Origin: Candidatus Woesearchaeota archaeon | GTDB lineage: Archaea; Nanobdellota; Nanobdellia; Woesearchaeales; 21-14-0-10-32-9 | Length of the DNA: 64,000 nucleotides | Assembly: GCA_021735165.1 (NCBI GenBank) | Contig: JAIPHP010000003.1 | Location: 1,419-65,418 of the forward strand | Direction of reading: 5' to 3' | Shown here: piece by piece, positions 17,915 through 37,628 of the stretch | Position numbering within the stretch: the stretch's first letter is position 1 | Layout: each line of letters starts with the position of its first letter | The notes under the pieces: generated by a model | Database searches by the model: none | The model's input: only the letters and a program-made list of their open reading frames with translations | Told to the model about the DNA's origin: nothing | Program-made: the position numbers and the translations under genes

Positions 17915-18010
17915 TAATTTCGCTAATAAATCGCGGGAATCATGTATGTCTTACCCTGAAAAAGTCCAATGTTTCCCGCAGATGATTCGAATTTATGGAA
18001 GTTATAGAAG

Positions 18011-20767: not shown

Positions 20768-21131
20768 TTTCAAAGGAAAGATTCACAAACTTACTAAAGA
20801 TGATTGTATTAGAGGAGGCAAGGTTTCCAGTGAACGTAAAAGAAAAGCAAATGGTATTAAAAATCTTCTTCATGGAAGAAATTCAGATAAACTATTTTTT
20901 CTTTTGAGTTGTATTGATTGTCCCGCTATTGGCAGATGTGAAAAAAGTCATGATGGATATTGTACTTATCTTCTAGAAGAGATGAAACTCAATAGGGATT
21001 TTTCTAAGCAGGTTGCCAGATGTCTTCATGTTGATAAAGAAGGACTTGATCCAACTACTTTTCTGATGAAGAAATATGAATTAAATAAAGAGTATATTGC
21101 TATGTTGTTTCCTAGCGACTCCAATGGATAG
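20751..21131 (+). CDS. small Cys-rich protein, paralog B
   Basis: N-terminal LDNFKGKIHKLT...RGGK motif paralogous to 20354-20767; CIDCPAIGRCEKSHDGYC cluster. Confidence 0.45.
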   Translation: MNRLDNFKGKIHKLTKDDCIRGGKVSSERKRKANGIKNLLHGRNSDKLFFLLSCIDCPAIGRCEKSHDGYCTYLLEEMKLNRDFSKQVARCLHVDKEGLDPTTFLMKKYELNKEYIAMLFPSDSNG

Positions 21132-21170: not shown

Positions 21171-21464
21171 ATGGATGACAATAATAACACGAGGTATAAT
21201 AATATGGCAAACAAAAAAACAAAGAAAGATTCTTTTTACCAAATGGCTAAGAAAGTACTCAATACAGAAAAGAAACCTATGCACTATGCAGACATTACAA
21301 GGGAGATCTTAAAGACAAAAGAAAGTAAAGGTAAGAGTCCTGAAAGAACTGTAATGGCTGTAATCATTAGAGATTCTCATGATGTGTTTATGAAAATGGG
21401 TGATGGTGTTTTTGGACTTACTAAATTAAAAGAACTTTATTCCGCTGAAAGTTCAAAGGTTTAA
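21171..21464 (+). CDS. HARE-HTH-like winged-helix DNA-binding protein
   Basis: Pattern YQMAKKVL...MHYADITREIL...SPERTVMAVIIRDSHDVFMKMGDGVFGL resembles the HARE-HTH domain. Confidence 0.4.
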   Translation: MDDNNNTRYNNMANKKTKKDSFYQMAKKVLNTEKKPMHYADITREILKTKESKGKSPERTVMAVIIRDSHDVFMKMGDGVFGLTKLKELYSAESSKV

Positions 21465-21560
21465 ATAAGATTCTTGTTTTAGCGGAAAATATTCTCATTT
21501 TTATGAGATTTATTTGCCATTGTATAATTAAAACCCTTAAACTAATGATTTAAGTGCTAT

Positions 21561-21580
21561 TTTTGTGATTTTATCACAAA
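21561..21580. promoter_or_regulatory. perfect palindrome ttttgtgat-tt-atcacaaaa, candidate operator
   Basis: 9-bp inverted arms about 130 bp upstream of the Csa3-like regulator gene. Confidence 0.3.
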
Positions 21581-21707
21581 ATTCAACTGTAAATCTCTGA
21601 AAACAGGGTTTTTATGTTTAGATATTATTTGATATTAAGTCTAGTTTTAGTGAGATAATTCCGTTAATTGAGTAATATTTATAAACTAGCATAACTTTAC
21701 CACATCC

Positions 21708-22307
21708 ATGACAAAGATACTCATTGCTACGCTCTATGTATTTGAACCTGTAATAGCTTCTGCAACGAAAATGAGTGCTGACAGACTCATTCTACTTATT
21801 GATAAGAAACCCGATAAGAAGCAAGTAGAATCGCTAGAAATACTAAAGAAATCACTTGGTTCAGTCATGGAAATAACTACTGTTGAGACTGAAGTGTATG
21901 ACATTGTTGAAGTAGCAAAAGAGACTGTTAAGATAATTGATCTTCTTTCTGATAAAGATGAAATCTATGTTGATATAACTGCTGGTCGTAAGACTAAAGC
22001 TTTAGGATTATTATTTGGTGCATATGCTCGAACTGACAGAGTAAAAAAGATAATGTATGTAAAAGAAGAGGATAAGTCCATTGTAAGTCTCCCTAAATTA
22101 TCTTATGCTATTACTCCAGGACAATATAAAATAGTTCATTATTTGCACAAGAATTCTATTGTTTCAATGATTGACCTTGCAAAGGAGATAGATATAAGCC
22201 GAGCCATGCTCTACAAACATATCAAAGAACTTAAGGATATGGATGTTATTGAGAACACTAAAGAAGGTCTCCAATTGACTGATTATGGGAGGATAGTGGT
22301 GCTTTAA
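21708..22307 (+). CDS. Csa3-like transcriptional regulator (CARF-like Rossmann domain plus C-terminal wHTH)
   Basis: N-terminal LIATLYVFEP...DITAGRKTKALGLL resembles the Csa3/CARF core (TxGF...DxTxGxR); C-terminal helix-turn-helix IVHYLHKNSIVSMIDLAKEIDISRAMLYKHIKEL. Confidence 0.5.
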   Translation: MTKILIATLYVFEPVIASATKMSADRLILLIDKKPDKKQVESLEILKKSLGSVMEITTVETEVYDIVEVAKETVKIIDLLSDKDEIYVDITAGRKTKALGLLFGAYARTDRVKKIMYVKEEDKSIVSLPKLSYAITPGQYKIVHYLHKNSIVSMIDLAKEIDISRAMLYKHIKELKDMDVIENTKEGLQLTDYGRIVVL

Positions 22308-22308
22308 A

Positions 22309-23157
22309 ATGGATAAAGAAAACAAGATTGTAGTATTCCAGGATAAAAAGATTAGAAGAACTTGGTTTAATGATGAATGGTGGTTTTCTATACTTGATAT
22401 TATAGGTGTTCTAACTAATCAATCTGATTATCAAAAGGTTCGTAATTACTGGAAATGGCTTAAAAATAAGCTAAAGGAAGAAGGAAGCGAGTTGGTTAGT
22501 GATACTAACCAACTGAAATTAGAAGCAGCAGATGGGAAAAAGTACAAAACTGATGTTGCTAATACTGAGCAAATATTTAGGTTGATCCAGTCAATCCCTT
22601 CTCCAAAAGCTGAACCTTTCAAACAGTGGCTTGCAAAAGTAGGTTATGAAAGAATTCAAGAAATAGAGAATCCTGAACTTGCTCAAGATAGAGCTAAAGA
22701 GTATTATGAACTTAAAGGATATCCTAAAGATTGGATTGACAAAAGACTTCGAGGGATTGCAGTTCGTCAAGCATTGACTGAAGAATGGAGCAACAGAGGA
22801 ATTGAAGAAAAAAGAGAATATGCCATCCTTACTAATGAAATATCTAAAGCAACTTTTGGTGTTGGAATTAAAGATCATAAGAAAGTCAAAGGTCTTGATC
22901 CAAAATTCAAGAATCAGAACCTTCGTGATCATATGACTGATCTTGAGCTTATCTTTAACATGCTTGGAGAAGCATCAACTACTGAGATTGCAAAGAAGAA
23001 AGATGCTCAAGGTTTTGTAGAAAATAAACTTGCAGCTAAAGAAGGTGGAAAGATAGCTGGAGATGCAAGAAAGAATCTTGAACTAAAGACAGGAGATAAA
23101 GTAGTTAGTGAAAAGAACTATCTTGATCTAAAGAAGAAGAGGAAAGAGTTGAAATGA
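22309..23157 (+). CDS. Bro-N / DinD-like (DNA-damage-inducible protein D family) protein
   Basis: N-terminal FQDKKIRRTWFNDEWWFSILDI...KKYKTDVANTEQIFRLIQSI matches the Bro-N/DinD pattern; shares the GKKYKT module with the downstream RhuM. Confidence 0.55.
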   Translation: MDKENKIVVFQDKKIRRTWFNDEWWFSILDIIGVLTNQSDYQKVRNYWKWLKNKLKEEGSELVSDTNQLKLEAADGKKYKTDVANTEQIFRLIQSIPSPKAEPFKQWLAKVGYERIQEIENPELAQDRAKEYYELKGYPKDWIDKRLRGIAVRQALTEEWSNRGIEEKREYAILTNEISKATFGVGIKDHKKVKGLDPKFKNQNLRDHMTDLELIFNMLGEASTTEIAKKKDAQGFVENKLAAKEGGKIAGDARKNLELKTGDKVVSEKNYLDLKKKRKELK

Positions 23158-24323
23158 CTTGCTATTCCCACTCTCGGATTTCAACTTTTGAACAATGTAA
23201 ATACAAGTACAAACTCCAATATATTGATAAGGTCAAAGTAGATGTTCCGACAACTGTTGAATGCTTTATGGGAGATCTTGTTCATCGTAGTTTGGAGAAG
23301 TTGTATAATGATCTGAAGTTTGAGAAACAGAACAGTAAAGAAGATCTAATCTCTTTTTTTAATGATCTTTGGTCTAAAGAGTGGACTGATGAAATCCTAA
23401 TTGTTAAGGAGGAGTTGAGTTCAGAGAATTATCGTTTGATGGGAGAGAAGTATATCTCTATGTATTATGATCATTATCAACCTTTTAATCAAATGACTGT
23501 TCTTGGTTTAGAGACTCAAGACAGAATGACTTTATCTGATGGAAACCAGTATCATGTAAGAATAGATAAGTTGGCTTGTGTGAGAGATACCTATTATGTC
23601 TGTGACTATAAAACTAATTCACGAATGAAAGATCAAGAAGAAGCAGACGAAGATAGACAACTTGCAATGTATTCAATCTGGGTAAAAGATAAATACAAAG
23701 ATGCAAAGAAAGTGGTTTTGCTTTGGCATATGCTTGCTTTTGATAAAGAAGCTATTTCTTCAAGGACTGACGAACAGTTGGAGAAATTACATTCCGAAGT
23801 TGTTTCTCAAATTAAAGATATTGAATCCTGTACTGAGTATCCTACTAATGTGACTGCACTATGCAATTATTGCGTGTATAAATCAATGTGTCCTTCTTTT
23901 AAGCATGAAGCAGAACTTGAGTTTAAATCTGCTGAAGAATTTACTGATGACTTCGGTGTGCAATTGGTTAATGATTATGCTGAAGCGGACTTTACTGAGA
24001 AAGAAGCTAAAAAGAAAAAAGAAGAATTGAAGATTAAGCTTATTGAGTTTGCAAAACAGAAAGAAGTTGATGTAGTCTATGGTTCTAATAAGAAAGCATC
24101 TGTTAAATCATATGACAAAGTTGTTTATCCAGAAGACAAAGCAGAGTTTATAAAACTCATAAAAGATAAAGGATTATATGATGAAATCAGCATGATTTCG
24201 TATCCTAGATTAAACTCACTTATCCTAAAAAAACAAGTTGATCAGGAAGTAATTGACAAGACTTCAACTGAAACTGATTATAGGATTTCACTATCTAAGA
24301 AGAGAACTGAGGGGGAAGAATAA
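23154..24323 (+). CDS. PD-(D/E)xK nuclease of the Cas4/RecB family with C-terminal Cys cluster
   Basis: N-terminal SHSRISTFEQCKYKYKLQYI (Cas4/AddB-like), DYKTN motif III, C-terminal CNYCVYKSMC Fe-S-type cysteines; 4-nt ATGA overlap with the upstream gene. Confidence 0.55.
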   Translation: MTCYSHSRISTFEQCKYKYKLQYIDKVKVDVPTTVECFMGDLVHRSLEKLYNDLKFEKQNSKEDLISFFNDLWSKEWTDEILIVKEELSSENYRLMGEKYISMYYDHYQPFNQMTVLGLETQDRMTLSDGNQYHVRIDKLACVRDTYYVCDYKTNSRMKDQEEADEDRQLAMYSIWVKDKYKDAKKVVLLWHMLAFDKEAISSRTDEQLEKLHSEVVSQIKDIESCTEYPTNVTALCNYCVYKSMCPSFKHEAELEFKSAEEFTDDFGVQLVNDYAEADFTEKEAKKKKEELKIKLIEFAKQKEVDVVYGSNKKASVKSYDKVVYPEDKAEFIKLIKDKGLYDEISMISYPRLNSLILKKQVDQEVIDKTSTETDYRISLSKKRTEGEE

Positions 24324-24332
24324 TAATGGCAC
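24286..24332. repeat. 47-bp direct repeat copy 1 (tttcactatctaagaagagaacNgagggggaagaataataatggca), flanks rhuM
   Basis: 46/47 identical to 25351-25397; contains the SD GAGGGGGAAG and the ATG of rhuM. Confidence 0.7.
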
Positions 24333-25348
24333 GGAATACAGATAATAATAAAATTGTCATCTATGAAACTGAAAAAGGGTTACCTAATATTGCAGTAAAG
24401 ATCGAAGATGAAACTGTATGGCTCACACAAGCCCAATTAGCTGATCTTTTTAGAACAACTAGACCTAATATAACAATGCATATTAGAAATCTTTTTGATG
24501 AAGGTGAATTGGATGAAAATTCAGTATGTAAGGATTTCTTACATACTGCTAATGATGGAAAAAAGTATAAAACTAAGCATTACAATCTTGATCTTATTAT
24601 TTCTTTAGGTTACAGAATTAAATCTAAAATTGCAACTAAATTTCGTCAATGGGCAACAGCAAGATTGCATGAATTCATAGTAAAAGGTTTTACTATGGAT
24701 GATGAGCGTCTAAAAAAGCTTGGTGGAGGTAATTATTGGAAAGAATTACTTGACCGTATCAAAGATATTCGTTCAAGTGAGAAAGTATTATATCGCCAAG
24801 TTCTTGACTTATATGCAACAAGCACAGATTATGATCCAAAATCAGCAGAATCAATTGATTTCTTTAAAGTTGTGCAAAATAAACTTCACTATGCAAGTCA
24901 TGGAAATACTGCTCCTGAGACAATCTATAATCGTGCAGATGCAGAAAAAGAATTTATGGGTTTGACTTCTTTTAAAGGAGACTTTCCTATCAAATCTGAT
25001 GTGGTTATTGCAAAGAACTACCTTTCAAAAAAAGAATTGAAAGTGCTTAATAATATAGTATCTGCATTCTTTGATCTGGCAGAAGTCAAAGCAATGAATC
25101 AAGAACCAATGCATATGAAAGATTGGATTATACAATTAGATCGTCTAATTCAGACATTTGACAAAGACGTCTTAACTGATGCAGGGAAGATCACTCATAA
25201 GAAAGCAGTGGAAAAAGCAGAAAAAGAATACAAAAAATACCAAGTAAAAACATTATCCCCAGTTGAAAAAGCATATCTAGAAAGCATAAAAGACGTTCAG
25301 AAGAAAGTCAAGAAAAGTGTAAATAAAGGAGCAAATAAAAATGAATGA
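24326..25348 (+). CDS. rhuM: RhuM-family protein
   Basis: N-terminus IVIYETEKG...IAVKIEDETVWLTQAQLADLF... is characteristic of RhuM, which is frequently embedded in type I R-M loci. Confidence 0.65.
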   Translation: MARNTDNNKIVIYETEKGLPNIAVKIEDETVWLTQAQLADLFRTTRPNITMHIRNLFDEGELDENSVCKDFLHTANDGKKYKTKHYNLDLIISLGYRIKSKIATKFRQWATARLHEFIVKGFTMDDERLKKLGGGNYWKELLDRIKDIRSSEKVLYRQVLDLYATSTDYDPKSAESIDFFKVVQNKLHYASHGNTAPETIYNRADAEKEFMGLTSFKGDFPIKSDVVIAKNYLSKKELKVLNNIVSAFFDLAEVKAMNQEPMHMKDWIIQLDRLIQTFDKDVLTDAGKITHKKAVEKAEKEYKKYQVKTLSPVEKAYLESIKDVQKKVKKSVNKGANKNE

Positions 25349-25350
25349 AG

Positions 25351-25397
25351 TTTCACTATCTAAGAAGAGAACAGAGGGGGAAGAATAATAATGGCAA
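25351..25397. repeat. 47-bp direct repeat copy 2, carries the SD and ATG of hsdM
   Basis: Matches 24286-24332 with one mismatch. Confidence 0.7.
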
Positions 25398-27100
25398 ATA
25401 TTACAGAATTAGCAAACTTCATATGGAGTGTAGCAGATCTCTTAAGAGGAGATTATAAACAATCAGATTACGGAAAAGTAGTCTTACCTTTCACGGTTTT
25501 AAGAAGACTTGATTGTGTTATAGAACCAACAAAAAAGAAAGTGCTTGATTATCTTCCAAAAATAAAAGGAATGAATATTAAAAATGCAGATCCAATTCTC
25601 AACAAAATTGCAGGATTAAATTTTCATAACAAAAGTAAGTTTGATTTTGAAAAACTAGTAGCAGATCCTGATAATATTGCTTCAAATCTAAGAAATTATA
25701 TCAACGGATTTTCTGAAGATGCAAGAAGTATAATGGAGTATTTTGACTTTGACAAAGAAATAGGTAAGCTCGATGATGCGAATTTGCTTTATATGATTGT
25801 TAAAAGATTCTCAGAAGTTGATTTACATCCTAACAAAATAAGTAATATTGAAATGGGGTATGCTTTCGAAGAACTTATCAGAAAATTCTCAGAGATATCT
25901 AATGAAACTGCTGGAGAGCACTTTACACCCAGAGAAGTAATTAGACTAATGGTAAATATTCTTTTCTTGAACGACAGAGATATTCTGACTAAGAAAGGAG
26001 TTACCAAAACCCTTTACGATCCTGCTTGTGGTACTGGAGGAATGCTTTCAGTTTCAGAAGAACATTTAAGAGAATTAAACCCAGATGCTCGTTTGGAAGT
26101 CTTTGGTCAAGAAATTAATCCTGAGTCTTATGCTATCTGTAAATCTGATATGGTTATTAAAGGTCAAAATACTGCAAATATAAAATATGGAAATACATTT
26201 ACGCATGATGGATTAGAGTTTAGCAAATTTGATTATATGCTTTCAAATCCTCCATTCGGAGTTGATTGGAAGAAATATGCTAAGCATGTAAAAGATGAAC
26301 ATGGAAACAGAGGTCATGCAGGAAGATTTGGTGCTGGGTTGCCTCGTATTTCTGATGGTTCATTGTTATTTTTACAACACATGATTTCAAAGATGAAACC
26401 GACTGGTTCTCGAATTGCTATTGTGTTTAATGGGTCTCCCCTATTTACTGGAAGTGCAGGTTCAGGAGAAACAGAAATAAGACGTTGGATTATTGAAAAT
26501 GATTGGCTTGAAGCAGTTATAGCTTTACCTGATCAACTATTCTATAACACAGGAATTAATACATATATTTGGATTATTTCAAATAAAAAATCTATTTATA
26601 GAAAGGGGAAAGTTCAATTAATTAATGCTACATCAGACAAATTTTATTCTAAGATGAAAAAGAGTCTTGGAAGTAAAAGACATGAAGTTGACAAAGTTTC
26701 AGAAATTACTTCCCTTTATGGTGATTTTAAGAATGGGAAATTCTGTAAACTTTTTGATAATGATGATCTTGGTTATTGGCAAGTTACTGTAGAAAGACCA
26801 TTAATGAAAGATGGAAAACCAGTTACTGATAAGAATGGCAATCCAAAACCTGACAGCTCATTAAGAGATACTGAAATAATACCATTGACGCAAGACATTA
26901 ATGAATATATTGAGAAAGAAGTAAAGCCTCATGTTCCTGATGCTTGGGTTGACGAATCAAAAACCAAGAAAGGGTATGAGATTAATTTTACTAAATATTT
27001 CTATGAATACAAACCTCTTCGAAGTTTGGCAGAAATCAAGAAAGATATTCTTGCTTTAGAAGAAGAAACAAAAGACATGATCGAGGAGGTTGTTGAATGA
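25391..27100 (+). CDS. hsdM: type I restriction-modification system methyltransferase subunit HsdM
   Basis: N6-adenine MTase motifs: DPACGTGGML (motif I) and LSNPPFG (motif IV); N-terminal HsdM_N-like region. Confidence 0.9.
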   Translation: MANITELANFIWSVADLLRGDYKQSDYGKVVLPFTVLRRLDCVIEPTKKKVLDYLPKIKGMNIKNADPILNKIAGLNFHNKSKFDFEKLVADPDNIASNLRNYINGFSEDARSIMEYFDFDKEIGKLDDANLLYMIVKRFSEVDLHPNKISNIEMGYAFEELIRKFSEISNETAGEHFTPREVIRLMVNILFLNDRDILTKKGVTKTLYDPACGTGGMLSVSEEHLRELNPDARLEVFGQEINPESYAICKSDMVIKGQNTANIKYGNTFTHDGLEFSKFDYMLSNPPFGVDWKKYAKHVKDEHGNRGHAGRFGAGLPRISDGSLLFLQHMISKMKPTGSRIAIVFNGSPLFTGSAGSGETEIRRWIIENDWLEAVIALPDQLFYNTGINTYIWIISNKKSIYRKGKVQLINATSDKFYSKMKKSLGSKRHEVDKVSEITSLYGDFKNGKFCKLFDNDDLGYWQVTVERPLMKDGKPVTDKNGNPKPDSSLRDTEIIPLTQDINEYIEKEVKPHVPDAWVDESKTKKGYEINFTKYFYEYKPLRSLAEIKKDILALEEETKDMIEEVVE

Positions 27101-28362
27101 ACACCTACTCTGAATACAAAGACAGTGGTATTGACTGGATTGGAAAAATTCCAAAGAGTTGGCAAGTTAAGAAATTAAAGTATATTGCAGACATTAAAAC
27201 AGGCGATAAAGATACAGTTGATCGTGAAGATGATGGAAAATATCCTTTTTTTGTTAGGTCACAGACTGTGGAGAAAATTAGTTCATATTCATTTGACGGT
27301 GAGGCAGTATTAACTGCAGGAGATGGGGTAGGCGTAGGTAAAGTATTTCATTATATTAATGGCAAATTTGATTATCATCAAAGAGTATATGGAATAAAAA
27401 ATTTCAAAGATGTAAATGGAAGATATTTTTATTATTTCCTTAAAGAAAATCTGCGTAAAGAAATTGCAAGAAATAACGCTAAATCAACTGTTGATTCTTT
27501 AAGATTGCCAATGTTTAAGGATTTCCATGTTACTTTTGGAAACATAGATGAGCAGAAAAAAATTGTTGATTTCTTAGATTCGAAATCAGAAAGAATTAAA
27601 GAATTTGTACATAAGAAAAAAGAACTTATAGAACTTCTTAAAGCACAGCGAATATCTCTTATCAATCAAGTTATTACTAAAGGTTTGAATAGAACTGTTG
27701 AATTAAAAGAGTCTAATATAACTTGGATTGGAAAATTTCCGAAGCATTGGATTATTAAGAAACTTAAATATAATACCTATATTAAAGGCAGAATAGGTTG
27801 GCAAGCATTAAAAACTGATGAGTTTGTTGATGAAGGTCCTTATTGTGTTACAGGAACCGACTTTAAAGAGGGGGAAATCAATTGGAATAGTTGTTATCAT
27901 GTTGGTGAAGAAAGATGGGCGATGGATAAATTCATCCAATTGAAAGAAAAAGATCTTGTAATTACTAAAGATGGAACAATTGGTAAAATTGCAATTGTAA
28001 AAAATTTAAATGGTAAAGCTTGTTTGAATAGTGGCGTTTTTGTTACAAGACCAAAGAATGAAGATTATATTACTGAGTATATGTATTGGGTTTTAAATTC
28101 AACTATATTTACTGAATTTATTAATTTTGAAAAGAAAGGCACTACTATTTCCCATTTATATCAAAATGTATTCGAGAATATGCCTTATACTCAACCTCCT
28201 ATCTCTGAACAGAAAGAGATTGTTAAATTTTTAGATCAAGAAACATCACAAATAGATAAATCCATAGAAAAGATTCAGAAAGAGATTGGGCTTTTAGAGG
28301 AGTACAAGGAAGCTCTTATTTCTGAGGCTGTGACTGGAAAAATAAAGGTGACGCATGAATAA
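27097..28362 (+). CDS. hsdS: type I R-M specificity subunit HsdS
   Basis: Two target-recognition domains each followed by conserved coiled-coil repeats (QKKIVDFLDSKSERIKEF... / QKEIVKFLDQETSQIDKSIEKIQKEI...); 4-nt overlap with hsdM. Confidence 0.85.
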   Translation: MNTYSEYKDSGIDWIGKIPKSWQVKKLKYIADIKTGDKDTVDREDDGKYPFFVRSQTVEKISSYSFDGEAVLTAGDGVGVGKVFHYINGKFDYHQRVYGIKNFKDVNGRYFYYFLKENLRKEIARNNAKSTVDSLRLPMFKDFHVTFGNIDEQKKIVDFLDSKSERIKEFVHKKKELIELLKAQRISLINQVITKGLNRTVELKESNITWIGKFPKHWIIKKLKYNTYIKGRIGWQALKTDEFVDEGPYCVTGTDFKEGEINWNSCYHVGEERWAMDKFIQLKEKDLVITKDGTIGKIAIVKNLNGKACLNSGVFVTRPKNEDYITEYMYWVLNSTIFTEFINFEKKGTTISHLYQNVFENMPYTQPPISEQKEIVKFLDQETSQIDKSIEKIQKEIGLLEEYKEALISEAVTGKIKVTHE

Positions 28363-28525
28363 AGAAGATAAAAATATACTTCTGGCGATAGGAGGCATGG
28401 CATTACTTGGATGGCTTTTAAGTAAAGACAAATATAAATGTCCTAGATGCAATTATCCCGTTACTAAAGAAATGTATTCTTGTCCTAATTGCGGTCAACC
28501 TTTGGCTTGGGAGGGTAAAAAATGA
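28355..28525 (+). CDS. 56-aa membrane-anchored zinc-ribbon protein
   Basis: MNKEDKNILLAIGGMALLGWLL (TM) followed by CPRC...CPNC; overlaps the hsdS stop (ATGAATAA) and the next start (ATGA). Below the ORF-track size cut-off. Confidence 0.4.
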   Translation: MNKEDKNILLAIGGMALLGWLLSKDKYKCPRCNYPVTKEMYSCPNCGQPLAWEGKK

Positions 28526-28845
28526 CTGATAAAGTTAAACCTCTGCCACCAGTAAAAGTAAAAATCAATCTTTGGAATTATTTAAAGTTAGGATTTTTAA
28601 TTTTAATATCTTGCATACTTTGGATTACATTAATTATTACAGGCATTAATTTGTTAGGGTATTATATTAAATCAATTATAGTTAATGGATTTTTTGATCC
28701 TGAAACCTTAAAATATGCCGTCATGCTTGTTGTTGGAGCTTATTTCTTTTTAATACTCGATAAAAATAAGATCTATGAAGCACTTAATGTAAAGAGGGGT
28801 TTGCCATTCATTACAGTTGAACAAATAGAGGAGAAAAAGAAATGA
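28522..28845 (+). CDS. small membrane protein (2 TM)
   Basis: 107 aa with two hydrophobic helices; translationally coupled (ATGA) on both sides. Confidence 0.45.
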   Translation: MTDKVKPLPPVKVKINLWNYLKLGFLILISCILWITLIITGINLLGYYIKSIIVNGFFDPETLKYAVMLVVGAYFFLILDKNKIYEALNVKRGLPFITVEQIEEKKK

Positions 28846-31181
28846 ATTTGATAATTAAAGTAATTACGGATTTAGGATATTTAATTTCTCCTGAAAATAG
28901 TCTTCTACTTTATTTCACAATATTGGGTATTTTAGTTACTTTAATTTCTATTTCAAGCAGTTTAACTAAAGAAGTACGTCAAGATTTATTTTATAATTAT
29001 TATATTAAATCAAAATTTCTGATTAGTTATCTAATATTTTATTTGATTTCATTTATTATTACATTTAGTTTTTATGTGTTTGAATGGGAATATTTGGATG
29101 TGTTATTAGGAACTCTTTTCATCATATTATTTGCTTGGTCGGTCTTTGTAATCTTTTTGTTTGTTAAAAATCTCAGTAGAAACTGGTTTTATGGACAACT
29201 TATTAGAAAGTTTAAATCAGAATTAAAAAAGACCAAACGGTCAGAAACCAAATATCAAACTCACACTCGAACAGAATTCAAATCATTAGATGATTTTCTA
29301 AAGAACCTAACTTATATTGAAACTACAAGTAGTGATTTTATCGAAGAAATAGAATTTGTAAAAGAGGTTGGTAGAATTACTCTAAAATCCAGTAATAATT
29401 ATATCTTTGATGATTTTTTTAGGCAACTTAAAAAAATAGAGAATCCTAAATTCTTTAGAAAATTAAGAAATTCTCTTTATGATTTAATGTGGGACAATTT
29501 CAATGAGCTAAGGGTTGTTATAAATCTTCAAAATATATATTCATCTTTATCAATTCATAGTTTTGAGAAAGTAAAAGAATTTGATAAAAATATTAATTCT
29601 GATGGTCTTAGAATTAAATCATTTAATGATATAAGATATATTGATTTATATGAAAAATCAACAGACCTAGATTGGATTAAGAGTTATGAAAGTCTAATTG
29701 TTAATACTATCAACAACTTATTTTCTTTAAGCAAGCAAACTATTTATTTGGATCTTGCTATAAAATCAAAGAAAAGATATCTTCTAGAACAATTGGGATC
29801 GATGGTTAAAGTTTTAGAGCATTATAATCACATACATGGACAAGATTTCCTAGATAATTATTATAATTTAAAATATAAAAAAGACATATCTGGAGATGAA
29901 AAGAAAAATTTGGATTTAGCAGATAGAAAATTGAATGCAATATCAGAACTAAAATCATTTCTTTGGAATAAACTGTCTGAATTATTCTATTTAATTTTAT
30001 ATGAAATTAATAGAAATGAACTTTCAAAAGATTTTTTTGAAGTGGCATTAAAGATATTTAATATTAAAAGTTTTAAAGACCAATTTTACTCTTATGAGAG
30101 ATTTGATAAATTAGATTTTTTAAATTACGACTGGTTTGAAGGCGGGGCTCAAGCTATTGCATCATTTAATTTTAACAAGTATAAATCATTGCTTTCATTC
30201 TATCAATATAAACTCGATGAGACTCTAGATTTAAATCAATATGGTGATGAACATTTCTCCAAACATAATGTTAATGATCTTAAAAATGCATTAAATGATT
30301 TGTCTGCAGAATATATAAATAAATATTTTGAATATGATTCTAAGCAGTTAAATGATTTTAAAAAGAAAGCCATTAAGGAAATTGACAATAAAATTAAAAT
30401 TTTAAAGAAGAATAAGAAAAAATATATTGCTGAAACTCCTTTAGTGAAAAAGTATGTGAATAATTTTATTTCAGACTGTAAATCTAATTGGGATAAAAAT
30501 CAAGAGATTCTCAAAAAGATCTTTAATTATGTTGAATTAGACAATGGTTATAAAGTTAAAAATTTCTTTGGTCAATACAAATTATTTGATAAAGATTGGT
30601 TTTTAGAATCTTTTGACAAAACTGTCGCTTTAGATAGAAGTTCAGGTCAGCACTTTGGAAGAGATCAAGTTATCAGTAAACGAAAAAATATATTAACAAA
30701 AATAAATGAAACTTTTAATGCCAAAATTGATAAAGAAATTATTGTAAAAGATCTATATTCTGATTTGAAGAAAATAATAAAGAAAAATAAAGAATACGTG
30801 TTGTTTTATAATTCTGATATTGGTAGAGAAATATATAGGATTCCTGATATTCAATGGGATAGACAAGAATGGCTTACAGCTTCGTTTAAAATTAATGATT
30901 CTAAAATTTTCTTGTATGCAACAAATATCGAGGAAAGTTTATTGTTTGAAAAGGAAAGCTTCACATTAGAGCAATATAAAGAAGGCTATGAGAAAATAAA
31001 ACAACCTTTAGTAGTGCAAGTTGAAGAAATAAAGAATAAGGATGAAATTAAAAAAATCAAAGAATCAAATGATAGATTCAAAAATACTCAAGATGTTCAG
31101 CAAAACGTAAAAATAAGAATTGCGGAAAAGTTCGAGATTAAACGTAATAAAGGTTCAAAATTTATTAGACTAAAAAGATAA
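28842..31181 (+). CDS. membrane-anchored large protein of unknown function embedded in the R-M operon (candidate abortive-infection/defense effector)
   Basis: 779 aa; about 4 N-terminal TM helices then a roughly 640-aa soluble domain with no recognizable motif; located between hsdS and hsdR. Confidence 0.5.
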   Translation: MNLIIKVITDLGYLISPENSLLLYFTILGILVTLISISSSLTKEVRQDLFYNYYIKSKFLISYLIFYLISFIITFSFYVFEWEYLDVLLGTLFIILFAWSVFVIFLFVKNLSRNWFYGQLIRKFKSELKKTKRSETKYQTHTRTEFKSLDDFLKNLTYIETTSSDFIEEIEFVKEVGRITLKSSNNYIFDDFFRQLKKIENPKFFRKLRNSLYDLMWDNFNELRVVINLQNIYSSLSIHSFEKVKEFDKNINSDGLRIKSFNDIRYIDLYEKSTDLDWIKSYESLIVNTINNLFSLSKQTIYLDLAIKSKKRYLLEQLGSMVKVLEHYNHIHGQDFLDNYYNLKYKKDISGDEKKNLDLADRKLNAISELKSFLWNKLSELFYLILYEINRNELSKDFFEVALKIFNIKSFKDQFYSYERFDKLDFLNYDWFEGGAQAIASFNFNKYKSLLSFYQYKLDETLDLNQYGDEHFSKHNVNDLKNALNDLSAEYINKYFEYDSKQLNDFKKKAIKEIDNKIKILKKNKKKYIAETPLVKKYVNNFISDCKSNWDKNQEILKKIFNYVELDNGYKVKNFFGQYKLFDKDWFLESFDKTVALDRSSGQHFGRDQVISKRKNILTKINETFNAKIDKEIIVKDLYSDLKKIIKKNKEYVLFYNSDIGREIYRIPDIQWDRQEWLTASFKINDSKIFLYATNIEESLLFEKESFTLEQYKEGYEKIKQPLVVQVEEIKNKDEIKKIKESNDRFKNTQDVQQNVKIRIAEKFEIKRNKGSKFIRLKR

Positions 31182-31200
31182 TATTTAAGGAGGCATCATA

Positions 31201-34200
31201 ATGGCAAAAACTAAAGAAAGTGATTTTGAGGAGGCAATCGTTGACTCTCTTGTAAACTCAGGAGGGTATGAAGAAGGAGATCCTAAGGATTTTGATTCAG
31301 AGACAGCAATATTCAAGAATGATTTATTCAATTTTTTACAAAAAACTCAACCTAATGAGTGGAAGAAATCTCTTGAGGTTCATGGTAATGATGTTGAAGA
31401 GAAAGTTCTATTTAGATTAACGCAAGAATTACAGTCTAGAGATATTTTAGATGTACTCCGAAATGGGTTTACCGATTATGGAGTAAAATACAAATTAGCT
31501 TTTTTTAAGCCTGAGACTAAATTAAATCTTGATGATGCTAAAAGATATAAGAATAATCTCTTAAAAGTTACACGACAAGTTCATCACTCTCCTAATAATC
31601 CTGATCTTTCCTTAGATTTAGTTTTATCTATTAATGGTATTCCTGTTGCTACAGCTGAACTTAAAAATCAGTTCACAGGTCAGAATGTATCTAATGCTGA
31701 AAGGCAATATATTGAAGATAGAGATCCTAATGAATTAATTTTTCAATTTAAGAGAAGAACCTTAGTTCATTTTGCTATTGATACTGATGAAGTGTTTATG
31801 ACAACTAAACTTGAAGGTAAGAGAACTAGATATTTGCCTTTTAATCAAGGAGATAATAATGGTGCAGGTAATCCCTTAAATCCTGATGGATACAAAACTG
31901 CTTATCTTTGGGAGTATGTTTGGTCTAAAGATAGTTGGATGGATATATTACAGAAATTTGTTCATTTACAAACTGAAACCTACAAGATAGAAGGTAAAAC
32001 TATAAAAAAAGAAAAGATGATTTTTCCTAGATACCATCAATTAGATTCTGTAAGAAAACTAACTCAAGATGTAAAGTCAAAAGGTGCAGGTATTAATTAT
32101 TTAATTCAACATTCTGCAGGAAGTGGTAAATCTAATTCTATTGCCTGGTTAGCTTATAGGTTAGCAAGTCTTCATAATAAAGAAGATAAGGCTGTATTCA
32201 ATAGTGTTATTGTTGTTACTGATAGAACTGTTCTTGATAAACAATTACAAGATACAATTTATCAGTTTGAACATAAACAAGGAGTTGTTCAAAAGATTGA
32301 TAAGAATTCAACTCAATTAGCTGAATCGCTTACAAAAGGTATTCCAATTATCATTACAACATTGCAAAAGTTTCCATTTGTTCTTGATAAAATTGGTAAA
32401 TTACCTAAGAGAAAATATGCTGTTATTGTAGATGAAGCTCATTCTTCTCAAGGTGGAGAATCTTCTAAAAAGATGAAAGAAGTTCTTTCTATAAAAGACT
32501 CTGAAAAAGCATTGAATACTTTAACTGAAGAAGCTGAAGATCTTGCAGAAGATGAAATCAGGAAATCTATGGAAGCGAGAGGAAAGCAAGATAATCTAAG
32601 TTTCTTTGCATTTACTGCCACTCCTAAAAATAAAACATTAGAAGTATTTGGTCATAAGAAAAATAAGAAACCATATCCTTTCCATCTTTACTCTATGCGA
32701 CAAGCAATTGAAGAGGGATTTATTATTGATATATTAAAGAATTTTACAACATACAAAACTTATTTCAAATTATCTAAAGAAATTGAAGATGATCCTAAGA
32801 TAAATAAAAAGAAAGCTGCACGAGCAATAGCAAGGTTCTTAACTTTACACCCTCATAATTTATCACAAAAAACCGAAGTTATGGTGGAACATTTTAGACA
32901 AGTTGTAATGCATAAAATTGGAGGTAAAGCAAAAGCAATGGTTGTAACAGCCTCTAGACTTCATGCAGTAAGATACTATCAAGAGTTCAATAAATATATC
33001 AAAGAAAAAGGATATAGCAATATTAAAACACTTGTCGCATTTTCAGGGATTGTTAAAGATGAATTCGGTAACGAGTTTAAAGAAACTATTATGAATGGTT
33101 TTAAAGAAAAAGAATTGCCTGATAAGTTTAATACTAGTGAATATCAAATTCTTTTAGTTGCAGAAAAATATCAGACTGGATTTGATCAACCATTACTCCA
33201 TACTATGTATGTTGATAAAAAATTATCTGGTGTGAAAGCTGTTCAAACATTATCTAGATTAAATAGAGTTTGTTCAGGAAAAGAAGATACTTTCATCCTC
33301 GATTTTGCAAATACAGAAGAGGAAATTATTGAATCATTCCAACCTTACTATGAAATTACAACTATTGATGAACCAACAAATCCTAATAGGTTATATGATC
33401 TTAAGACAAAACTAGATCAAACAAGAGTTTATACAAATTCAGAAATAGATAGTTTTGCTAAGTTCTTCTTTAAACCAAAAGAGCGATATACTGTAAGAGA
33501 TAATGCTCAATTAAATAGATTTATTGATCCTGCAGTTGATAGATATAAAGGAATTAGCGGTGAAGATGATAAAGAAGATTTCAAACACACACTTACTGTG
33601 TTTATTAGAACTTATGCCTTCTTGGCTCAGATAATGCCTTTTAATGATGCTGAACTTGAAAAACTATTTGCATACGGTAAACTTCTTTTGAACAAACTTC
33701 CAAAAAGACAACTAGGAGAACAATTCAAACTAAATGATGAAGTTGCCTTGGAATATTATAGACTACAAAAAATCAAAGAAAGTCATATTAAACTTGAAAA
33801 AGGAAAAGTTGGAGAGTTAAACTCTGCAAAAGAAGCAGGAATAAGAAAAGACAAAGAAGAGAAAGCCAAACTATCCGAATTAATCGAAGTATTAAACGAT
33901 AGGTTTGGAACTGACTTTACTGAAGCAGATAAATTGTTCTTTGATCAAATTGAAGCTGAGCTAGTTGAAGATCAAAAGCTAAAAAGTAGTGCCGAAGTAA
34001 ATAATATTGAAAACTTCAAGTTTGGATTTGATGACCAATTCATGAATAAGTTAATTGATAGGATGGAACAAAATGAAGACATCTTTAGAAAAATAAATGA
34101 TGATAAAGTATTTGCTTCTGTAGTTAAAGACTATATGCTAAAGAAAGTTTACAATAGACTAAAAGAAGAAGAGAAAACTCTTTCAAAGTATCTAACTCAA

Positions 34201-34266
34201 GACGGTTCTGCTATGGCTGTTGCTGATAAAAAAGAAAAGTACGGTAAGAAGAAGGTGAAGAAATAA
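31201..34266 (+). CDS. hsdR: type I restriction enzyme R subunit HsdR
   Basis: 1021 aa; SF2 helicase motifs including GSGKS-like QHSAGSGKSNS and DEAH box VIVDEAHSSQ; RBS AAGGAGG upstream. Confidence 0.9.
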   Translation: MAKTKESDFEEAIVDSLVNSGGYEEGDPKDFDSETAIFKNDLFNFLQKTQPNEWKKSLEVHGNDVEEKVLFRLTQELQSRDILDVLRNGFTDYGVKYKLAFFKPETKLNLDDAKRYKNNLLKVTRQVHHSPNNPDLSLDLVLSINGIPVATAELKNQFTGQNVSNAERQYIEDRDPNELIFQFKRRTLVHFAIDTDEVFMTTKLEGKRTRYLPFNQGDNNGAGNPLNPDGYKTAYLWEYVWSKDSWMDILQKFVHLQTETYKIEGKTIKKEKMIFPRYHQLDSVRKLTQDVKSKGAGINYLIQHSAGSGKSNSIAWLAYRLASLHNKEDKAVFNSVIVVTDRTVLDKQLQDTIYQFEHKQGVVQKIDKNSTQLAESLTKGIPIIITTLQKFPFVLDKIGKLPKRKYAVIVDEAHSSQGGESSKKMKEVLSIKDSEKALNTLTEEAEDLAEDEIRKSMEARGKQDNLSFFAFTATPKNKTLEVFGHKKNKKPYPFHLYSMRQAIEEGFIIDILKNFTTYKTYFKLSKEIEDDPKINKKKAARAIARFLTLHPHNLSQKTEVMVEHFRQVVMHKIGGKAKAMVVTASRLHAVRYYQEFNKYIKEKGYSNIKTLVAFSGIVKDEFGNEFKETIMNGFKEKELPDKFNTSEYQILLVAEKYQTGFDQPLLHTMYVDKKLSGVKAVQTLSRLNRVCSGKEDTFILDFANTEEEIIESFQPYYEITTIDEPTNPNRLYDLKTKLDQTRVYTNSEIDSFAKFFFKPKERYTVRDNAQLNRFIDPAVDRYKGISGEDDKEDFKHTLTVFIRTYAFLAQIMPFNDAELEKLFAYGKLLLNKLPKRQLGEQFKLNDEVALEYYRLQKIKESHIKLEKGKVGELNSAKEAGIRKDKEEKAKLSELIEVLNDRFGTDFTEADKLFFDQIEAELVEDQKLKSSAEVNNIENFKFGFDDQFMNKLIDRMEQNEDIFRKINDDKVFASVVKDYMLKKVYNRLKEEEKTLSKYLTQDGSAMAVADKKEKYGKKKVKK

Positions 34267-34267
34267 G

Positions 34268-34648
34268 ATGGCTTTTGCATTATCATTAAAACAACCATGG
34301 GCTGAATTGATTTTACAAGGTAAGAAAACAATTGAGACTAGGAGATGGAATACTGAGTTTCGAGGAGAGTTCTATATTCATGCTTCCAAAACCATTGATA
34401 AAGAAGCTTGTGAAGAGTTAGGGATTGATCCTTCTTCTTTGGTTACTGGTGTTATTGTTGGGAAGGCAACAATAGTTGATGTTAAGGAGTATTATTCTGA
34501 AGACCAATTTATGAAAGATAATTCTAAACACCGAGCAGGATTTTATGGGTTTGGACATCCTCTTTTTGGATTCATATTGGAAGATGTAGAGCGAATCGAA
34601 CCAATTCCTCAGAAAGGTGCTCTGAAGTTTTTTGAGGTGAATGTATAA
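34268..34648 (+). CDS. ASCH-domain (PUA-like) protein
   Basis: LSLKQPWAELILQGKKTIETRRW is the hallmark ASCH N-terminal motif; starts 2 nt after the hsdR stop. Confidence 0.65.
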   Translation: MAFALSLKQPWAELILQGKKTIETRRWNTEFRGEFYIHASKTIDKEACEELGIDPSSLVTGVIVGKATIVDVKEYYSEDQFMKDNSKHRAGFYGFGHPLFGFILEDVERIEPIPQKGALKFFEVNV

Positions 34649-37570: not shown

Positions 37571-37628
37571 TAATACATGATATCTTATGGTGTTTGATAA
37601 AGGTTTCTAAGAATTATCCGAAAGATTT

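What the first reader, a model, noticed from the sequence alone, without database searches (positions are those of the whole stretch)
21561..22307. Csa3-like CARF/wHTH regulator in a defense island with no CRISPR-Cas, preceded by a perfect palindrome
The 199-aa protein has a Rossmann-like N-terminus with a Csa3-type core (DITAGRKTKALGL resembling the DxTxGxR signature) and a C-terminal wHTH. CARF-family sensors are normally tied to cyclic-oligoadenylate signalling in type III CRISPR contexts, yet there is no CRISPR array or cas gene here. It sits upstream of the DinD/Cas4-like/RhuM/R-M block, and the palindrome ttttgtgat-tt-atcacaaaa at 21561-21580 is a candidate operator. It may act as a ligand-gated transcriptional switch for the island.
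Basis: partly seen in the sequence, partly recalled or inferred. Interest (0 to 1): 0.6.

Follow-up and report, generated by a model that had tools for sequence, protein, structure and literature searches.

The report
Csa3-type regulator heading a CRISPR-less defence operon
A small sensor-plus-DNA-binding protein of the CRISPR-associated Csa3 family sits, in a tiny symbiotic archaeon without CRISPR nearby, as the first gene of a long anti-virus gene cluster, and its relatives do the same in about 60 other genomes, always near a Cas4-like nuclease, so it probably switches that cluster on or off.

Summary
The 199-aa ORF (21708-22307, +) is real and is a Csa3-family CARF + winged-HTH protein. TIGR01884 scores 88 bits against a cutoff of 60. 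The PADLOC CARF3 profile matches full length at 7e-72. The AF2 model (pLDDT 91) hits Csa3 structures 6WXQ/2WTE first. The window is from a Woesearchaeota (DPANN) archaeon and holds no CRISPR array and no cas gene.

The gene is the leaderless first cistron of a ~15-kb co-directional cluster: Bro-N/PDC-S13, Cas4-like nuclease, RhuM, type I R-M, ASCH, QatC-like. In about 60 related loci, including Methanococcus at 69% identity, the orthologue again heads variable defence cassettes. The most constant partner is a Cas4-superfamily PD-(D/E)XK nuclease.

It is not rarer than chance and is kept only in the closest relatives.

The family-wide conserved element is a TGAGA(A/T) box about 27 nt upstream of the TATA box, usually within TTCTCA-N6-TGAGAA. 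Its sequence changes together with the recognition helix.

Csa3-like regulators outside CRISPR loci are already known (HFX_2341/Crr). This is therefore a variant of a known kind, and its ligand is unknown.

The parts
21492..21509 (.). Distal inverted repeat TTCTCATTTTTATGAGAT. It is the only near-perfect copy in the window of the family operator consensus TTCTCA-N6-TGAGAA.
   Evidence: 1 mismatch to the consensus. It is conserved in the 97% relatives L004/L005 but not in L001 or L033.
21561..21581 (.). It is lineage-specific and its function is unknown.
   Evidence: The arms are invariant and the spacer varies (TTT/ATT/AAA) in WIN, L004 and L001. L033 has one mismatch and L014 is degenerate. 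It is not rarer than chance.
21639..21656 (.). Proximal operator-like site. It has a conserved TGAGAT box (21651-21656) and a weak left half GTCTAG (21639-21644). The box starts 27 nt upstream of the TATA box.
   Evidence: A TGAGA(A/T) box lies 25-28 nt upstream of TATA in 7 of 9 independent promoter groups. The other two (L028, L021/L030) carry variant boxes there. The box co-varies with the recognition helix.
21670..21685 (+). Archaeal core promoter: BRE-like GAGTAATA followed by the TATA box TTTATAAA (21678-21685). The ATG lies 30 nt downstream, which implies a leaderless mRNA.
   Evidence: The TATA-to-ATG distance is 27-32 nt in nearly all orthologues. No SD sequence precedes csa3, whereas internal genes have GGAGG-like SDs.
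21708..22307 (+). csa3-like gene, 199 aa. The CARF domain is aa 1-131 (21708-22100) and the wHTH is aa 137-199 (22116-22304). Motif 2, DITAGRKTK, is at 21972-21998. The recognition helix SRAMLYKHIKEL is at 22197-22232.
   Evidence: dN/dS is 0.06-0.11.
22309..23157 (+). Bro-N / DinD-like protein (PADLOC candidate PDC-S13).
   Evidence: Pfam Bro-N 9e-13. PDC-S13 2e-120. The gap after csa3 is 1 nt.
23154..24323 (+). Cas4-like PD-(D/E)XK nuclease, 389 aa. It has four Cys (an N-terminal Cys plus C-x2-C-x5-C), D...DYK and QxxxY motifs. It is the most constant partner of csa3-like genes.
   Evidence: PDDEXK_1 90.9 bits. TIGR00372 cas4 32.5 bits, below its cutoff of 65. Orthologues at 45-89% identity, or UvrD-fused or DUF2779 forms, lie next to csa3-like genes in most loci.
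24326..25348 (+). RhuM-family protein (PDC-S05).
   Evidence: Pfam 350 bits. PADLOC 5.5e-153.
25391..28362 (+). Type I R-M genes HsdM (25391-27100) and HsdS (27097-28362).
28355..31181 (+). Three uncharacterised ORFs inserted in the R-M operon: a 56-aa TM + zinc-ribbon ORF (28355-28525), a 107-aa ORF (28522-28845) and a 779-aa ORF (28842-31181).
   Evidence: The 107-aa and 779-aa ORFs have no Pfam or PADLOC hits. The small ORF was read.
31201..34266 (+). Type I R-M restriction subunit HsdR.
34268..36912 (+). ASCH-domain protein (34268-34648) and a 754-aa QueC/QatC-like protein (34648-36912). These are the last co-directional genes of the cluster.
   Evidence: PADLOC QatC 2.2e-22.

Best explanation
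The gene encodes a Csa3-family transcription factor, most likely dimeric, with an N-terminal CARF sensor and a C-terminal winged HTH.

It is the first, leaderless cistron of a roughly 15-kb polycistronic defence cluster in a Woesearchaeota genome region without CRISPR-Cas.

The protein most likely binds an inverted repeat of TGAGA-type half-sites placed immediately upstream of the BRE/TATA of its own promoter. Through that binding it would set the transcription of itself and of the genes behind it: the Cas4-like nuclease, Bro-N, RhuM, type I R-M and the QatC-like gene.

The very strongly conserved CARF pocket motifs suggest that DNA binding or activation is modulated by a small nucleotide ligand of the cOA type or a related adenylate or oligonucleotide. 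The source of that ligand in a CRISPR-poor DPANN genome is unknown.

What is shown: family membership, fold, gene order, conservation of the promoter element and of the association with defence genes and Cas4-like nucleases. What is inferred: binding to that element, the direction of regulation (activation is slightly favoured, because the site lies upstream of BRE as it does for Csa3a), and ligand gating.
For: Family and fold.

Operon structure:
- Gaps from csa3 to the QatC-like gene run from -4 to +42 nt, and the apparent 159-nt HsdS gap is filled by a small ORF.
- SD-like GGAGG motifs precede internal genes, but none precedes csa3.
- The TATA box lies 30 nt upstream of the ATG.

Comparative context: across the fetched loci the gene is followed, on the same strand, by different defence sets.
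- These include type I R-M, GmrSD, UvrD-PDDEXK/HEC-05, Dnd, BREX in M. maripaludis KA1, and SNF2/MTase/Res.
- The upstream flanks differ: PCNA, phage-tail-like genes plus a Cdc6-like gene, or a TrmB-like gene.
- A Cas4-like, DUF2779 or UvrD-fused PD-(D/E)XK nuclease is present in nearly all loci that have 4.4 kb or more of downstream sequence.

Operator:
- A TGAGA(A/T) box lies 25-28 nt upstream of TATA in 7 of 9 promoter groups whose remaining upstream sequence has diverged beyond recognition. The other two (L028, L021/L030) carry variant boxes at that position.
- It usually forms the palindrome TTCTCA-N6-TGAGAA, for example M. vannielii TTCTCATAATTATGAGAA.
- Clades with an altered recognition helix have altered half-sites. 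SKSLLYQSIKDL goes with TTCCAG-N6-ATGGAA, and SRAMLYRNIKEL goes with TTCTAC-N6-GTAGAA.

Pocket:
- T91-A92-G93-R94-K95 fits the Csa3 cA4 motif 2, small-small-G-x-R (PMC8844856).
- Y10 is invariant, and E120/E121 are invariant or nearly so.
- GRKTKALGLLFGAYAR is the most conserved stretch, even at 42-55% overall identity.

Purifying selection: dN/dS is 0.06-0.11.

Precedent: Csa3a binds an imperfect palindrome immediately upstream of the promoters it activates (PMC5587795).
Against: - No binding or expression data exist.
- In this window the promoter-proximal site has only one good half-site. The left half matches 3 of 6 positions.
- The one near-perfect palindrome (21492-21509) is about 200 nt upstream and is not conserved beyond the 97% relatives.
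- Genome-wide the motif is not enriched: 7 matches against 8.2 expected at up to 2 mismatches.
- Csa3 motif 1 (Phi-G-F-N/D-x-z-F) is only loosely matched by T8-L9-Y10-V11-F12-E13, and there is no Gly.
- No cOA synthase is encoded in the window, and DPANN genomes are poor in CRISPR-Cas (PMC12988326).
- For Csa3Sso, cA4 did not change specific DNA binding in vitro (PMC8844856).
- One orthologue (L061) is not followed by a defence cassette.
Confidence: 0.6

Rival explanations
1. It is a general or global regulator like Haloferax HFX_2341/Crr. Its position next to defence genes would be incidental, or would reflect co-transfer only, and it would not specifically control the island.
For: - Pfam HFX_2341_N is the best Pfam hit, at 45 bits.
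- HFX_2341 is a Csa3-like global repressor found in CRISPR-negative species.
- Orthologue L061 sits among housekeeping genes.
Against: - The gene holds the same position and orientation at the head of defence cassettes in dozens of loci with unrelated flanks.
- There is a 1-nt gap to the next gene, and csa3 is the only cistron with its own TATA.
- The 69% identity between DPANN and Methanococcus proteins argues for travel with mobile defence DNA. HFX_2341, by contrast, shows a vertical signal.
Confidence: 0.15
2. The CARF domain no longer senses a ligand and serves only as a dimerisation scaffold for a constitutive autoregulator.
For: - There is no Cas10 or CD-NTase in the window.
- Csa3 motif 1 is only partly matched (one search compared).
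- cA4 had no effect on Csa3Sso DNA binding.
Against: - The pocket-lining motif 2 and helix alpha4 form the most conserved segment of the whole family.
- Y10, R94, K95 and E121 are invariant among the 32 sequences (65-100% identity). Y10, R94 and K95 stay invariant down to about 42% identity. G93 and E120 are about 90% conserved in that wider set.
- That pattern is more than dimerisation alone would require.
Confidence: 0.15
3. It is a CARF-wHTH ring nuclease or cOA sink of the Crn1 type that degrades or sequesters cyclic oligoadenylates rather than regulating transcription.
For: - The next-best structural matches, with lower rmsd, are the ring nucleases Sis0811 and Sso1393.
- T8 is about 90% conserved at the end of beta1, and K95 is invariant in motif 2. 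These resemble the catalytic Ser/Thr and Lys positions described for ring nucleases.
Against: - There is no GxS/T motif; the sequence is I-A-T-L-Y.
- The best HMM and Foldseek E-values go to Csa3.
- The wHTH recognition helix is strongly conserved and co-varies with a promoter palindrome, which indicates sequence-specific DNA binding.
- No cOA-producing system is evident.
Confidence: 0.07
4. csa3 and the Cas4-like gene are inert remnants of a decayed type I-A/I-B adaptation module.
For: csa3 and cas4 are neighbours in Sulfolobales adaptation modules, where Csa3a regulates cas4, cas1 and cas2.
Against: - dN/dS is 0.06-0.11.
- The 199-aa length is kept without indels throughout the clade with 65% or more identity.
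- No CRISPR array was found in about 625 kb of related loci.
- The Cas4-like protein scores below the Cas4 equivalog threshold.
Confidence: 0.03

Closest known systems
Csa3 / Csa3a of Saccharolobus solfataricus and Sulfolobus islandicus (PDB 2WTE, 6WXQ, 6W11; TIGR01884)
   Same: - It has the same two-domain architecture and size, CARF + wHTH in about 200 aa, and Csa3 is the best structural match.
- It scores above the TIGR01884 cutoff.
- A motif-2-like sequence, TAGRK, and a Glu equivalent to E122 are present.
- The putative binding site is an imperfect palindrome immediately upstream of the promoter, as for Csa3a.
- It lies next to a Cas4-family nuclease gene.
   Different: - Identity is only 18-19%.
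- There is no CRISPR array and no cas1/cas2/Cascade genes nearby in any of about 60 loci.
- Motif 1 differs (T-L-Y-x-F-E instead of Phi-G-F-N/D-x-z-F).
- The genes it fronts are R-M, BREX, GmrSD, Dnd and helicase-nuclease systems.
- The ligand and the ligand source are unknown.
HFX_2341 (Crr) of Haloferax mediterranei (Pfam PF19810)
   Same: - It is a Csa3-like CARF-HTH regulator that is not genomically linked to CRISPR.
- Homologues occur in CRISPR-negative organisms.
- The ligand is unknown.
- The Pfam HFX_2341_N domain is matched above its cutoff.
   Different: - HFX_2341 is 308 aa, vertically inherited, and acts as a global repressor of metabolic and transport genes.
- The present clade is 199 aa.
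- It appears horizontally mobile, with 69% identity between DPANN and Methanococcus.
- It is tied to defence cassettes.
WYL-domain defence regulators (BrxR, CapW)
   Same: It resembles these in how it probably works: a ligand-sensing domain fused to a wHTH, encoded at the 5' end of BREX, CBASS or R-M islands and controlling them. M. maripaludis KA1 has the csa3-like gene directly in front of brxA-brxC.
   Different: The sensor fold is unrelated (CARF Rossmann-like against the WYL Sm-like fold), and these regulators are bacterial rather than archaeal. It is not a member of this family.
Solo-Cas4 / UvrD-Cas4-like nucleases of DPANN and other small genomes (Hudaiberdiev et al. 2017)
   Same: The partner gene 23154-24323 belongs to this group. 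That paper already noted solo-Cas4 genes next to R-M systems in DPANN genomes.
   Different: In a term search of that paper's main text, Csa3 appears only in the reference list and CARF not at all. A consistent pairing with a Csa3-like regulator therefore appears not to be described there. The 2020 CARF census could not be read.

Membership tests
Csa3 (CARF3 clade; NCBIfam TIGR01884 cas_HTH) | Score above the curated family HMM threshold over the full length | tested here: met
   TIGR01884 scores 88.3 bits against a cutoff of 60.2, covering aa 5-186. PADLOC CARF3 PDLC01849 matches at 6.8e-72 over 1-199. Pfam Csa3_N alone scores 22.8 bits, below its cutoff of 27.
Csa3 (CARF3 clade; NCBIfam TIGR01884 cas_HTH) | N-terminal CARF (Rossmann-like) fold followed by a C-terminal winged HTH | tested here: met
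   The AF2 model has pLDDT 90.8, with a beta-alpha core followed by three helices and a wing. The Foldseek top hits are 6wxq, 2wte and 6w11. HTH_24 scores 30.4 bits.
Csa3 (CARF3 clade; NCBIfam TIGR01884 cas_HTH) | cA4-binding motif 2 (small-small-G-hydrophobic-R) and the limiting Glu (E122 in Csa3Sso) | tested here: met
   T91-A92-G93-R94-K95 and E120/E121 were read from the sequence. R94 and K95 are invariant across the family, and G93 and E120 are about 90% conserved. The motif definition comes from PMC8844856. The correspondence rests on secondary-structure register, not on a superposition.
Csa3 (CARF3 clade; NCBIfam TIGR01884 cas_HTH) | Csa3-specific cA4-binding motif 1 (Phi-G-F-N/D-x-z-F) | tested here: inconclusive
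   The sequence is T8-L9-Y10-V11-F12-E13-P14. An invariant aromatic, Y10, sits where F10 is expected, but there is no Gly and the second Phe is not conserved.
Csa3 (CARF3 clade; NCBIfam TIGR01884 cas_HTH) | Genomic association with CRISPR-cas loci (type I-A/I-B) | tested here: not met
   There is no array and no cas gene in the 64-kb window. No arrays were found in about 625 kb of related loci. No Cas family other than Cas4 appeared among the 25 families listed (of 51 found) for the downstream neighbours.
Csa3 (CARF3 clade; NCBIfam TIGR01884 cas_HTH) | Binding of cyclic tetra-adenylate by a homodimer | not testable with these tools
   This needs ITC, MST or DSF with purified protein.
HFX_2341/Crr-like regulators (Pfam PF19810) | HFX_2341_N domain above the gathering threshold | tested here: met
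   45.1 bits against a cutoff of 30, aa 12-121.
HFX_2341/Crr-like regulators (Pfam PF19810) | Global repressor function, about 308 aa, vertical inheritance | not tested
   The length differs (199 aa). The distribution across DPANN and Methanococcus at about 69% identity suggests horizontal transfer. Function was not tested.
Crn1-type CARF-wHTH ring nucleases (Sso1393, Sis0811) | Catalytic GxS/T motif after beta1 plus a motif-2 Lys | tested here: inconclusive
   K95 is invariant and T8 is about 90% conserved, but the local sequence is I-A-T and has no Gly. Structural similarity is at E about 4e-9.
Cas4 (TIGR00372), for the partner gene 23154-24323 | Score above the Cas4 equivalog cutoff | tested here: not met
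   It scores 32.5 bits against a cutoff of 65. It is a PDDEXK_1 member at 90.9 bits with a Cas4-like 4-Cys pattern and a QxxxY motif. It is therefore Cas4-like, not Cas4 proper.

The most novel reading that the evidence does not exclude
The Csa3-like regulator and a Cas4-superfamily nuclease (solo, DUF2779-type or UvrD-fused) form a small, horizontally mobile core module around which defence islands assemble in CRISPR-poor archaea (DPANN, Methanococcus).

In this reading the CARF domain senses a nucleotide signal that Cas10 does not make. Candidates are oligonucleotide products of the partner nuclease acting on restricted DNA, or the product of an unrecognised cyclase. The signal would couple detection of invading DNA to induction of the whole island. 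This would be an archaeal, CARF-based counterpart of the WYL (BrxR/CapW) regulators, and a possible evolutionary link to the csa3-cas4 adaptation modules of type I-A CRISPR.
Probability: 0.25. Interest if true: 0.75.

Novelty: new variant of a known kind. Interest (0 to 1): 0.45.

Why it matters
CARF domains are understood almost entirely as receivers of Cas10-made cyclic oligoadenylates. This tightly conserved Csa3 clade regularly heads R-M, BREX, Dnd, GmrSD and helicase-nuclease cassettes in lineages that mostly lack CRISPR-Cas. That raises two questions: what does the pocket bind there, and do archaea use CARF regulators the way bacteria use WYL regulators to control innate defence islands?

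The question is experimentally tractable. A 69%-identical orthologue sits between a UvrD-nuclease gene and a BREX operon in Methanococcus maripaludis KA1, a strain of a species with established genetics. A concrete operator candidate is also available, with helix/half-site covariation that can be tested.

The conserved gene could also serve as a marker for finding new archaeal defence genes. Examples here are the uncharacterised 779-aa and 107-aa ORFs inside the R-M operon.

Tried and rejected
1. Its frequency is within chance, it is absent from orthologues below about 90% identity, and its half-site arrangement does not fit the family consensus.
2. A sequence-profile search of the PDB with the full-length family alignment found only HTH proteins. 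Csa3 was recovered only by structure. The CARF half alone recovered Can2 and Sso1393.
3. The IMG/VR scan for relatives found none. A viral origin is therefore unsupported, although some loci lie just after phage-tail-like genes.
4. Window-wide enrichment of TTCTCA-N6-TGAGAA was absent. Support for the operator rests on positional conservation and covariation only.
5. A strict BRE/TATA regular expression gave no hits, not even the csa3 promoter itself. It says nothing about internal promoters.
6. The Makarova 2020 CARF census could not be retrieved. Whether it already lists this clade's non-CRISPR context could not be checked.
7. M. vannielii protein P0095 (the short start) was not on record. 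The 205-aa form P0096 worked.
8. Small ORFs downstream of the csa3-like gene in the 50% clade were searched for Cascade-like or cyclase functions. They returned no family apart from DUF2779 and GmrSD.
Full report
**What is there.** The window is AT-rich (31% G+C) and archaeal. It carries a PCNA gene at 16312-17055. The protein of interest is 100% identical to a record from a Candidatus Woesearchaeota (DPANN) archaeon that NCBI names 'CRISPR locus-related DNA-binding protein'.

The palindrome is also real, but it was mis-transcribed by one base. Its arms are 21561-21569 and 21573-21581, and the spacer is TTT.

**Family assignment.** Several independent lines place the protein in the Csa3 branch of the CARF superfamily.
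- NCBIfam TIGR01884 (cas_HTH/Csa3) scores 88.3 bits against a cutoff of 60.2.
- A PADLOC CARF3 profile matches end to end at 6.8e-72, and CasR matches at 1.9e-28.
- Pfam HFX_2341_N (45 bits) and HTH_24 (30 bits) are above their thresholds, while Csa3_N (22.8 bits) is just below its own.
- An AlphaFold2 model built from 32 homologues has pLDDT 90.8. It retrieves S. solfataricus Csa3 (6WXQ, 2WTE, 6W11) as its best PDB matches over the full length. The CARF-wHTH ring nucleases Sis0811/Sso1393 come next, followed by Can2, Cam1, Csm6 and Card1.
- The CARF half alone hits Can2 at the sequence level (E 9.8e-5), aligning DEIYVDITsGRKT with DEIYVNISGGTKS.

That criterion is not met.

**Pocket.** The published Csa3Sso-cA4 structure defines motif 2 as small-small-G-hydrophobic-R, and identifies a limiting Glu122 (PMC8844856). 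Here T91-A92-G93-R94-K95 and E120/E121 occupy the corresponding beta4-alpha4 and beta5-beta6 loops. An invariant Tyr10 sits where Phe10 stacks on adenine in Csa3Sso.

Motif 1 is otherwise only loosely matched. Across the family, GRKTKALGLLFGAYAR is the most conserved segment, even at 42-55% overall identity. This favours a preserved ligand site but does not identify the ligand.

**No CRISPR-Cas.** TRF, Rfam and a custom regular-spacing scan find no array. Family searches on ORFs across the window find no cas gene. The only exception is the weak, sub-threshold Cas4 similarity of the PD-(D/E)XK nuclease at 23154-24323 (32.5 bits against a cutoff of 65).

**Operon.** From csa3 to the QatC-like gene (21708-36912), all genes are co-directional with gaps of -4 to +42 nt. 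The one apparent 159-nt gap holds a 56-aa zinc-ribbon ORF. Internal genes are preceded by GGAGG-like sequences. In contrast, csa3 has a BRE/TATA (TTTATAAA, 21678-21685) 30 nt upstream of its ATG and no SD, which is a leaderless first cistron. The same 27-32 nt TATA-to-ATG spacing holds for nearly all orthologues.

**Comparative genomics.** Homologues are abundant in metagenomes. There are 672 clusters at 90% identity, but they collapse to few clusters at 50% identity: 254 at E<=1e-3 among 1.84 billion representatives.

The 199-aa clade is extraordinarily uniform.
- It has no indels and 79% mean column identity.
- It spans Woesearchaeota/Nanoarchaeota and, at about 69% identity, Methanococcus vannielii and M. 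maripaludis.
- dN/dS is 0.06-0.11.

I fetched 62 related loci. In nearly all of them the gene is followed on the same strand by defence genes that differ from locus to locus:
- Bro-N, GmrSD, Cas4-like and type I R-M with an AAA_15 gene (L004);
- Cas4-like, DUF1232, a DEAD helicase, an SMC-like gene and Dnd (L003/L006);
- GmrSD, UvrD-PDDEXK (HEC-05), RmuC and a Schlafen-like gene (L009);
- BrxA-BrxC in M. maripaludis KA1 (L060);
- SNF2, a methyltransferase, Res and PDDEXK_1 (L062).

The upstream flanks also differ: PCNA-linked, phage-tail-like genes plus a Cdc6/NACHT-like ATPase, or a divergent TrmB-like gene.

Pooled Pfam and PADLOC scans of 88 downstream proteins are dominated by PDDEXK_1/Cas4-like, GmrSD, UvrD, HsdM and Bro-N.

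The most constant partner is a Cas4-superfamily nuclease, which takes one of three forms:
- the roughly 390-aa protein orthologous to 23154-24323, at 45-89% identity;
- a UvrD-fused PD-(D/E)XK domain;
- in the 50% clade, a DUF2779 protein.

L002 shows a minimal form: csa3, a 92-aa ORF and the Cas4-like gene. One locus (L061) lacks a defence cassette. No CRISPR array occurs in the approximately 625 kb examined.

**Operator.** The TGTGAT palindrome is within chance expectation for this composition: 11 comparable palindromes against 6.3 +/- 2.9 expected. Its arms are invariant and its spacer variable in WIN, L004 and L001. L033 carries one mismatch, and the palindrome has decayed in the 85% relative L014. 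It is therefore probably functional in a narrow lineage, but it cannot be the cognate site of a recognition helix that is nearly invariant family-wide.

Upstream regions anchored on the TATA box reveal a TGAGA(A/T) box 25-28 nt upstream of TATA in 7 of the 9 promoter groups of the 68%-or-more clade. L028 (TGATA) and L021/L030 (TGGAA) carry variant boxes at that position. The box usually forms part of TTCTCA-N6-TGAGAA, for example M. vannielii TTCTCATAATTATGAGAA and L003 TTCTCACAGTCATGAGAT.

In the window the proximal copy is TGAGAT (21651-21656) with a weak left half. A near-perfect copy lies at 21492-21509.

Clades with altered recognition helices have correspondingly altered half-sites:
- L021/L030: SKSLLYQSIKDL with TTCCAG-N6-ATGGAA;
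- the 50% clade: SRAMLYRNIKEL with TTCTAC-N6-GTAGAA.

This covariation is the best available evidence for direct autoregulation. A site just upstream of BRE/TATA matches the Csa3a activator arrangement (PMC5587795), so I slightly favour activation. HFX_2341 and Csa3b are repressors, however, so the sign of regulation is open.

**Relation to what is known.**
- Csa3-like proteins unlinked to CRISPR are not new. Makarova et al. 2014 noted unlinked members in every CARF family.
- HFX_2341/Crr is a characterised example in haloarchaea, with the same open question about its ligand.
- Solo-Cas4 genes next to R-M in DPANN genomes were noted in 2017.
- In the papers I could read, I did not find the systematic pairing of this Csa3 clade with Cas4-superfamily nucleases at the head of diverse innate defence cassettes. 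Nor did I find its operator.
- The 2020 CARF census could not be read. That limits the novelty claim.

**Verdict.** The finding is a new variant of a known kind, of moderate interest.

Noticed in passing
window 34268-36912: An ASCH-domain gene is immediately followed by a 754-aa protein with a QueC/QatC-like C-terminal half (PADLOC QatC 2.2e-22). The pair is fused onto the end of the type I R-M operon. No QatA, QatB or QatD is nearby, so this may be an unusual QueC-family defence gene.
   Followed up: partly
window 28355-31181: Three ORFs are inserted between hsdS and hsdR: a 56-aa TM + zinc-ribbon ORF, a 107-aa ORF and a 779-aa ORF. The 107-aa and 779-aa ORFs have no Pfam or PADLOC match. The 97% relative L004 carries an AAA_15/AAA_21 ATPase at the same place, so this is a cargo slot inside the R-M operon.
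   Followed up: partly
window 17480-21131: Between PCNA and the HARE-HTH gene lies a block comprising a 144-aa ORF, a 687-aa P-loop protein with only a weak AAA hit, and small Cys-rich ORFs. Two of the small ORFs (20354-20767 and 20751-21131) are paralogues sharing an N-terminal DNFKGKxH...GG(R/K) motif. The block is conserved in L004 but replaced in L001 and L002. It may be a remnant of an integrated element.
   Followed up: partly
window 39251-39271: A perfect palindrome, TTTCTCATAT-N-ATATGAGAAA, lies inside the minus-strand 513-aa ORF of unknown function (38929-40470). It has the same TTCTCA/TGAGAA half-sites as the csa3 operator consensus, but with a 7-nt rather than 6-nt spacing. This could be coincidence or a second binding site at the far edge of the island.
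   Followed up: no
L003/L006/L009/L022-L029, about 8 kb upstream of the csa3-like gene: In one Woesearchaeota group the csa3-led defence cassette directly follows genes with tape-measure (PhageMin_Tail) and tail-fibre domains and a 349-aa Cdc6/NACHT-like ATPase. This suggests the cassette sits at the end of a provirus or tail-like element. The IMG/VR scan nevertheless found no relatives.
   Followed up: partly
window 36902-40470 (minus strand): The distal end of the island carries, in convergent orientation, RadC (JAB domain), a short ATP-dependent DNA ligase (269 aa), a 119-aa ORF and a 513-aa ORF. Neither of the last two has a PADLOC match, and the 513-aa ORF also has no Pfam match.
   Followed up: no
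window 53731-53983: A 128-bp unit is duplicated in tandem (2.0 copies, 96% identity) in an intergenic region. It has no Rfam match.
   Followed up: no
window 21171-21464 and loci L002, L015: A small HARE-HTH protein (97 aa) lies immediately upstream of csa3. HARE-HTH genes, stand-alone or as a 306-aa fusion, recur within three genes upstream of csa3-like genes in other Woesearchaeota loci.
   Followed up: partly
L060 (Methanococcus maripaludis KA1, AP011526.1 800029-820646): The island around the orthologue also holds Shedu (SduA), a DEAD/MZB (DUF1998-type) helicase and an RNase T-like gene upstream. A BREX operon lies downstream and a divergent UvrD-PDDEXK gene is adjacent. M. maripaludis has established genetics, so this locus could be used to test the regulator.
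   Followed up: partly
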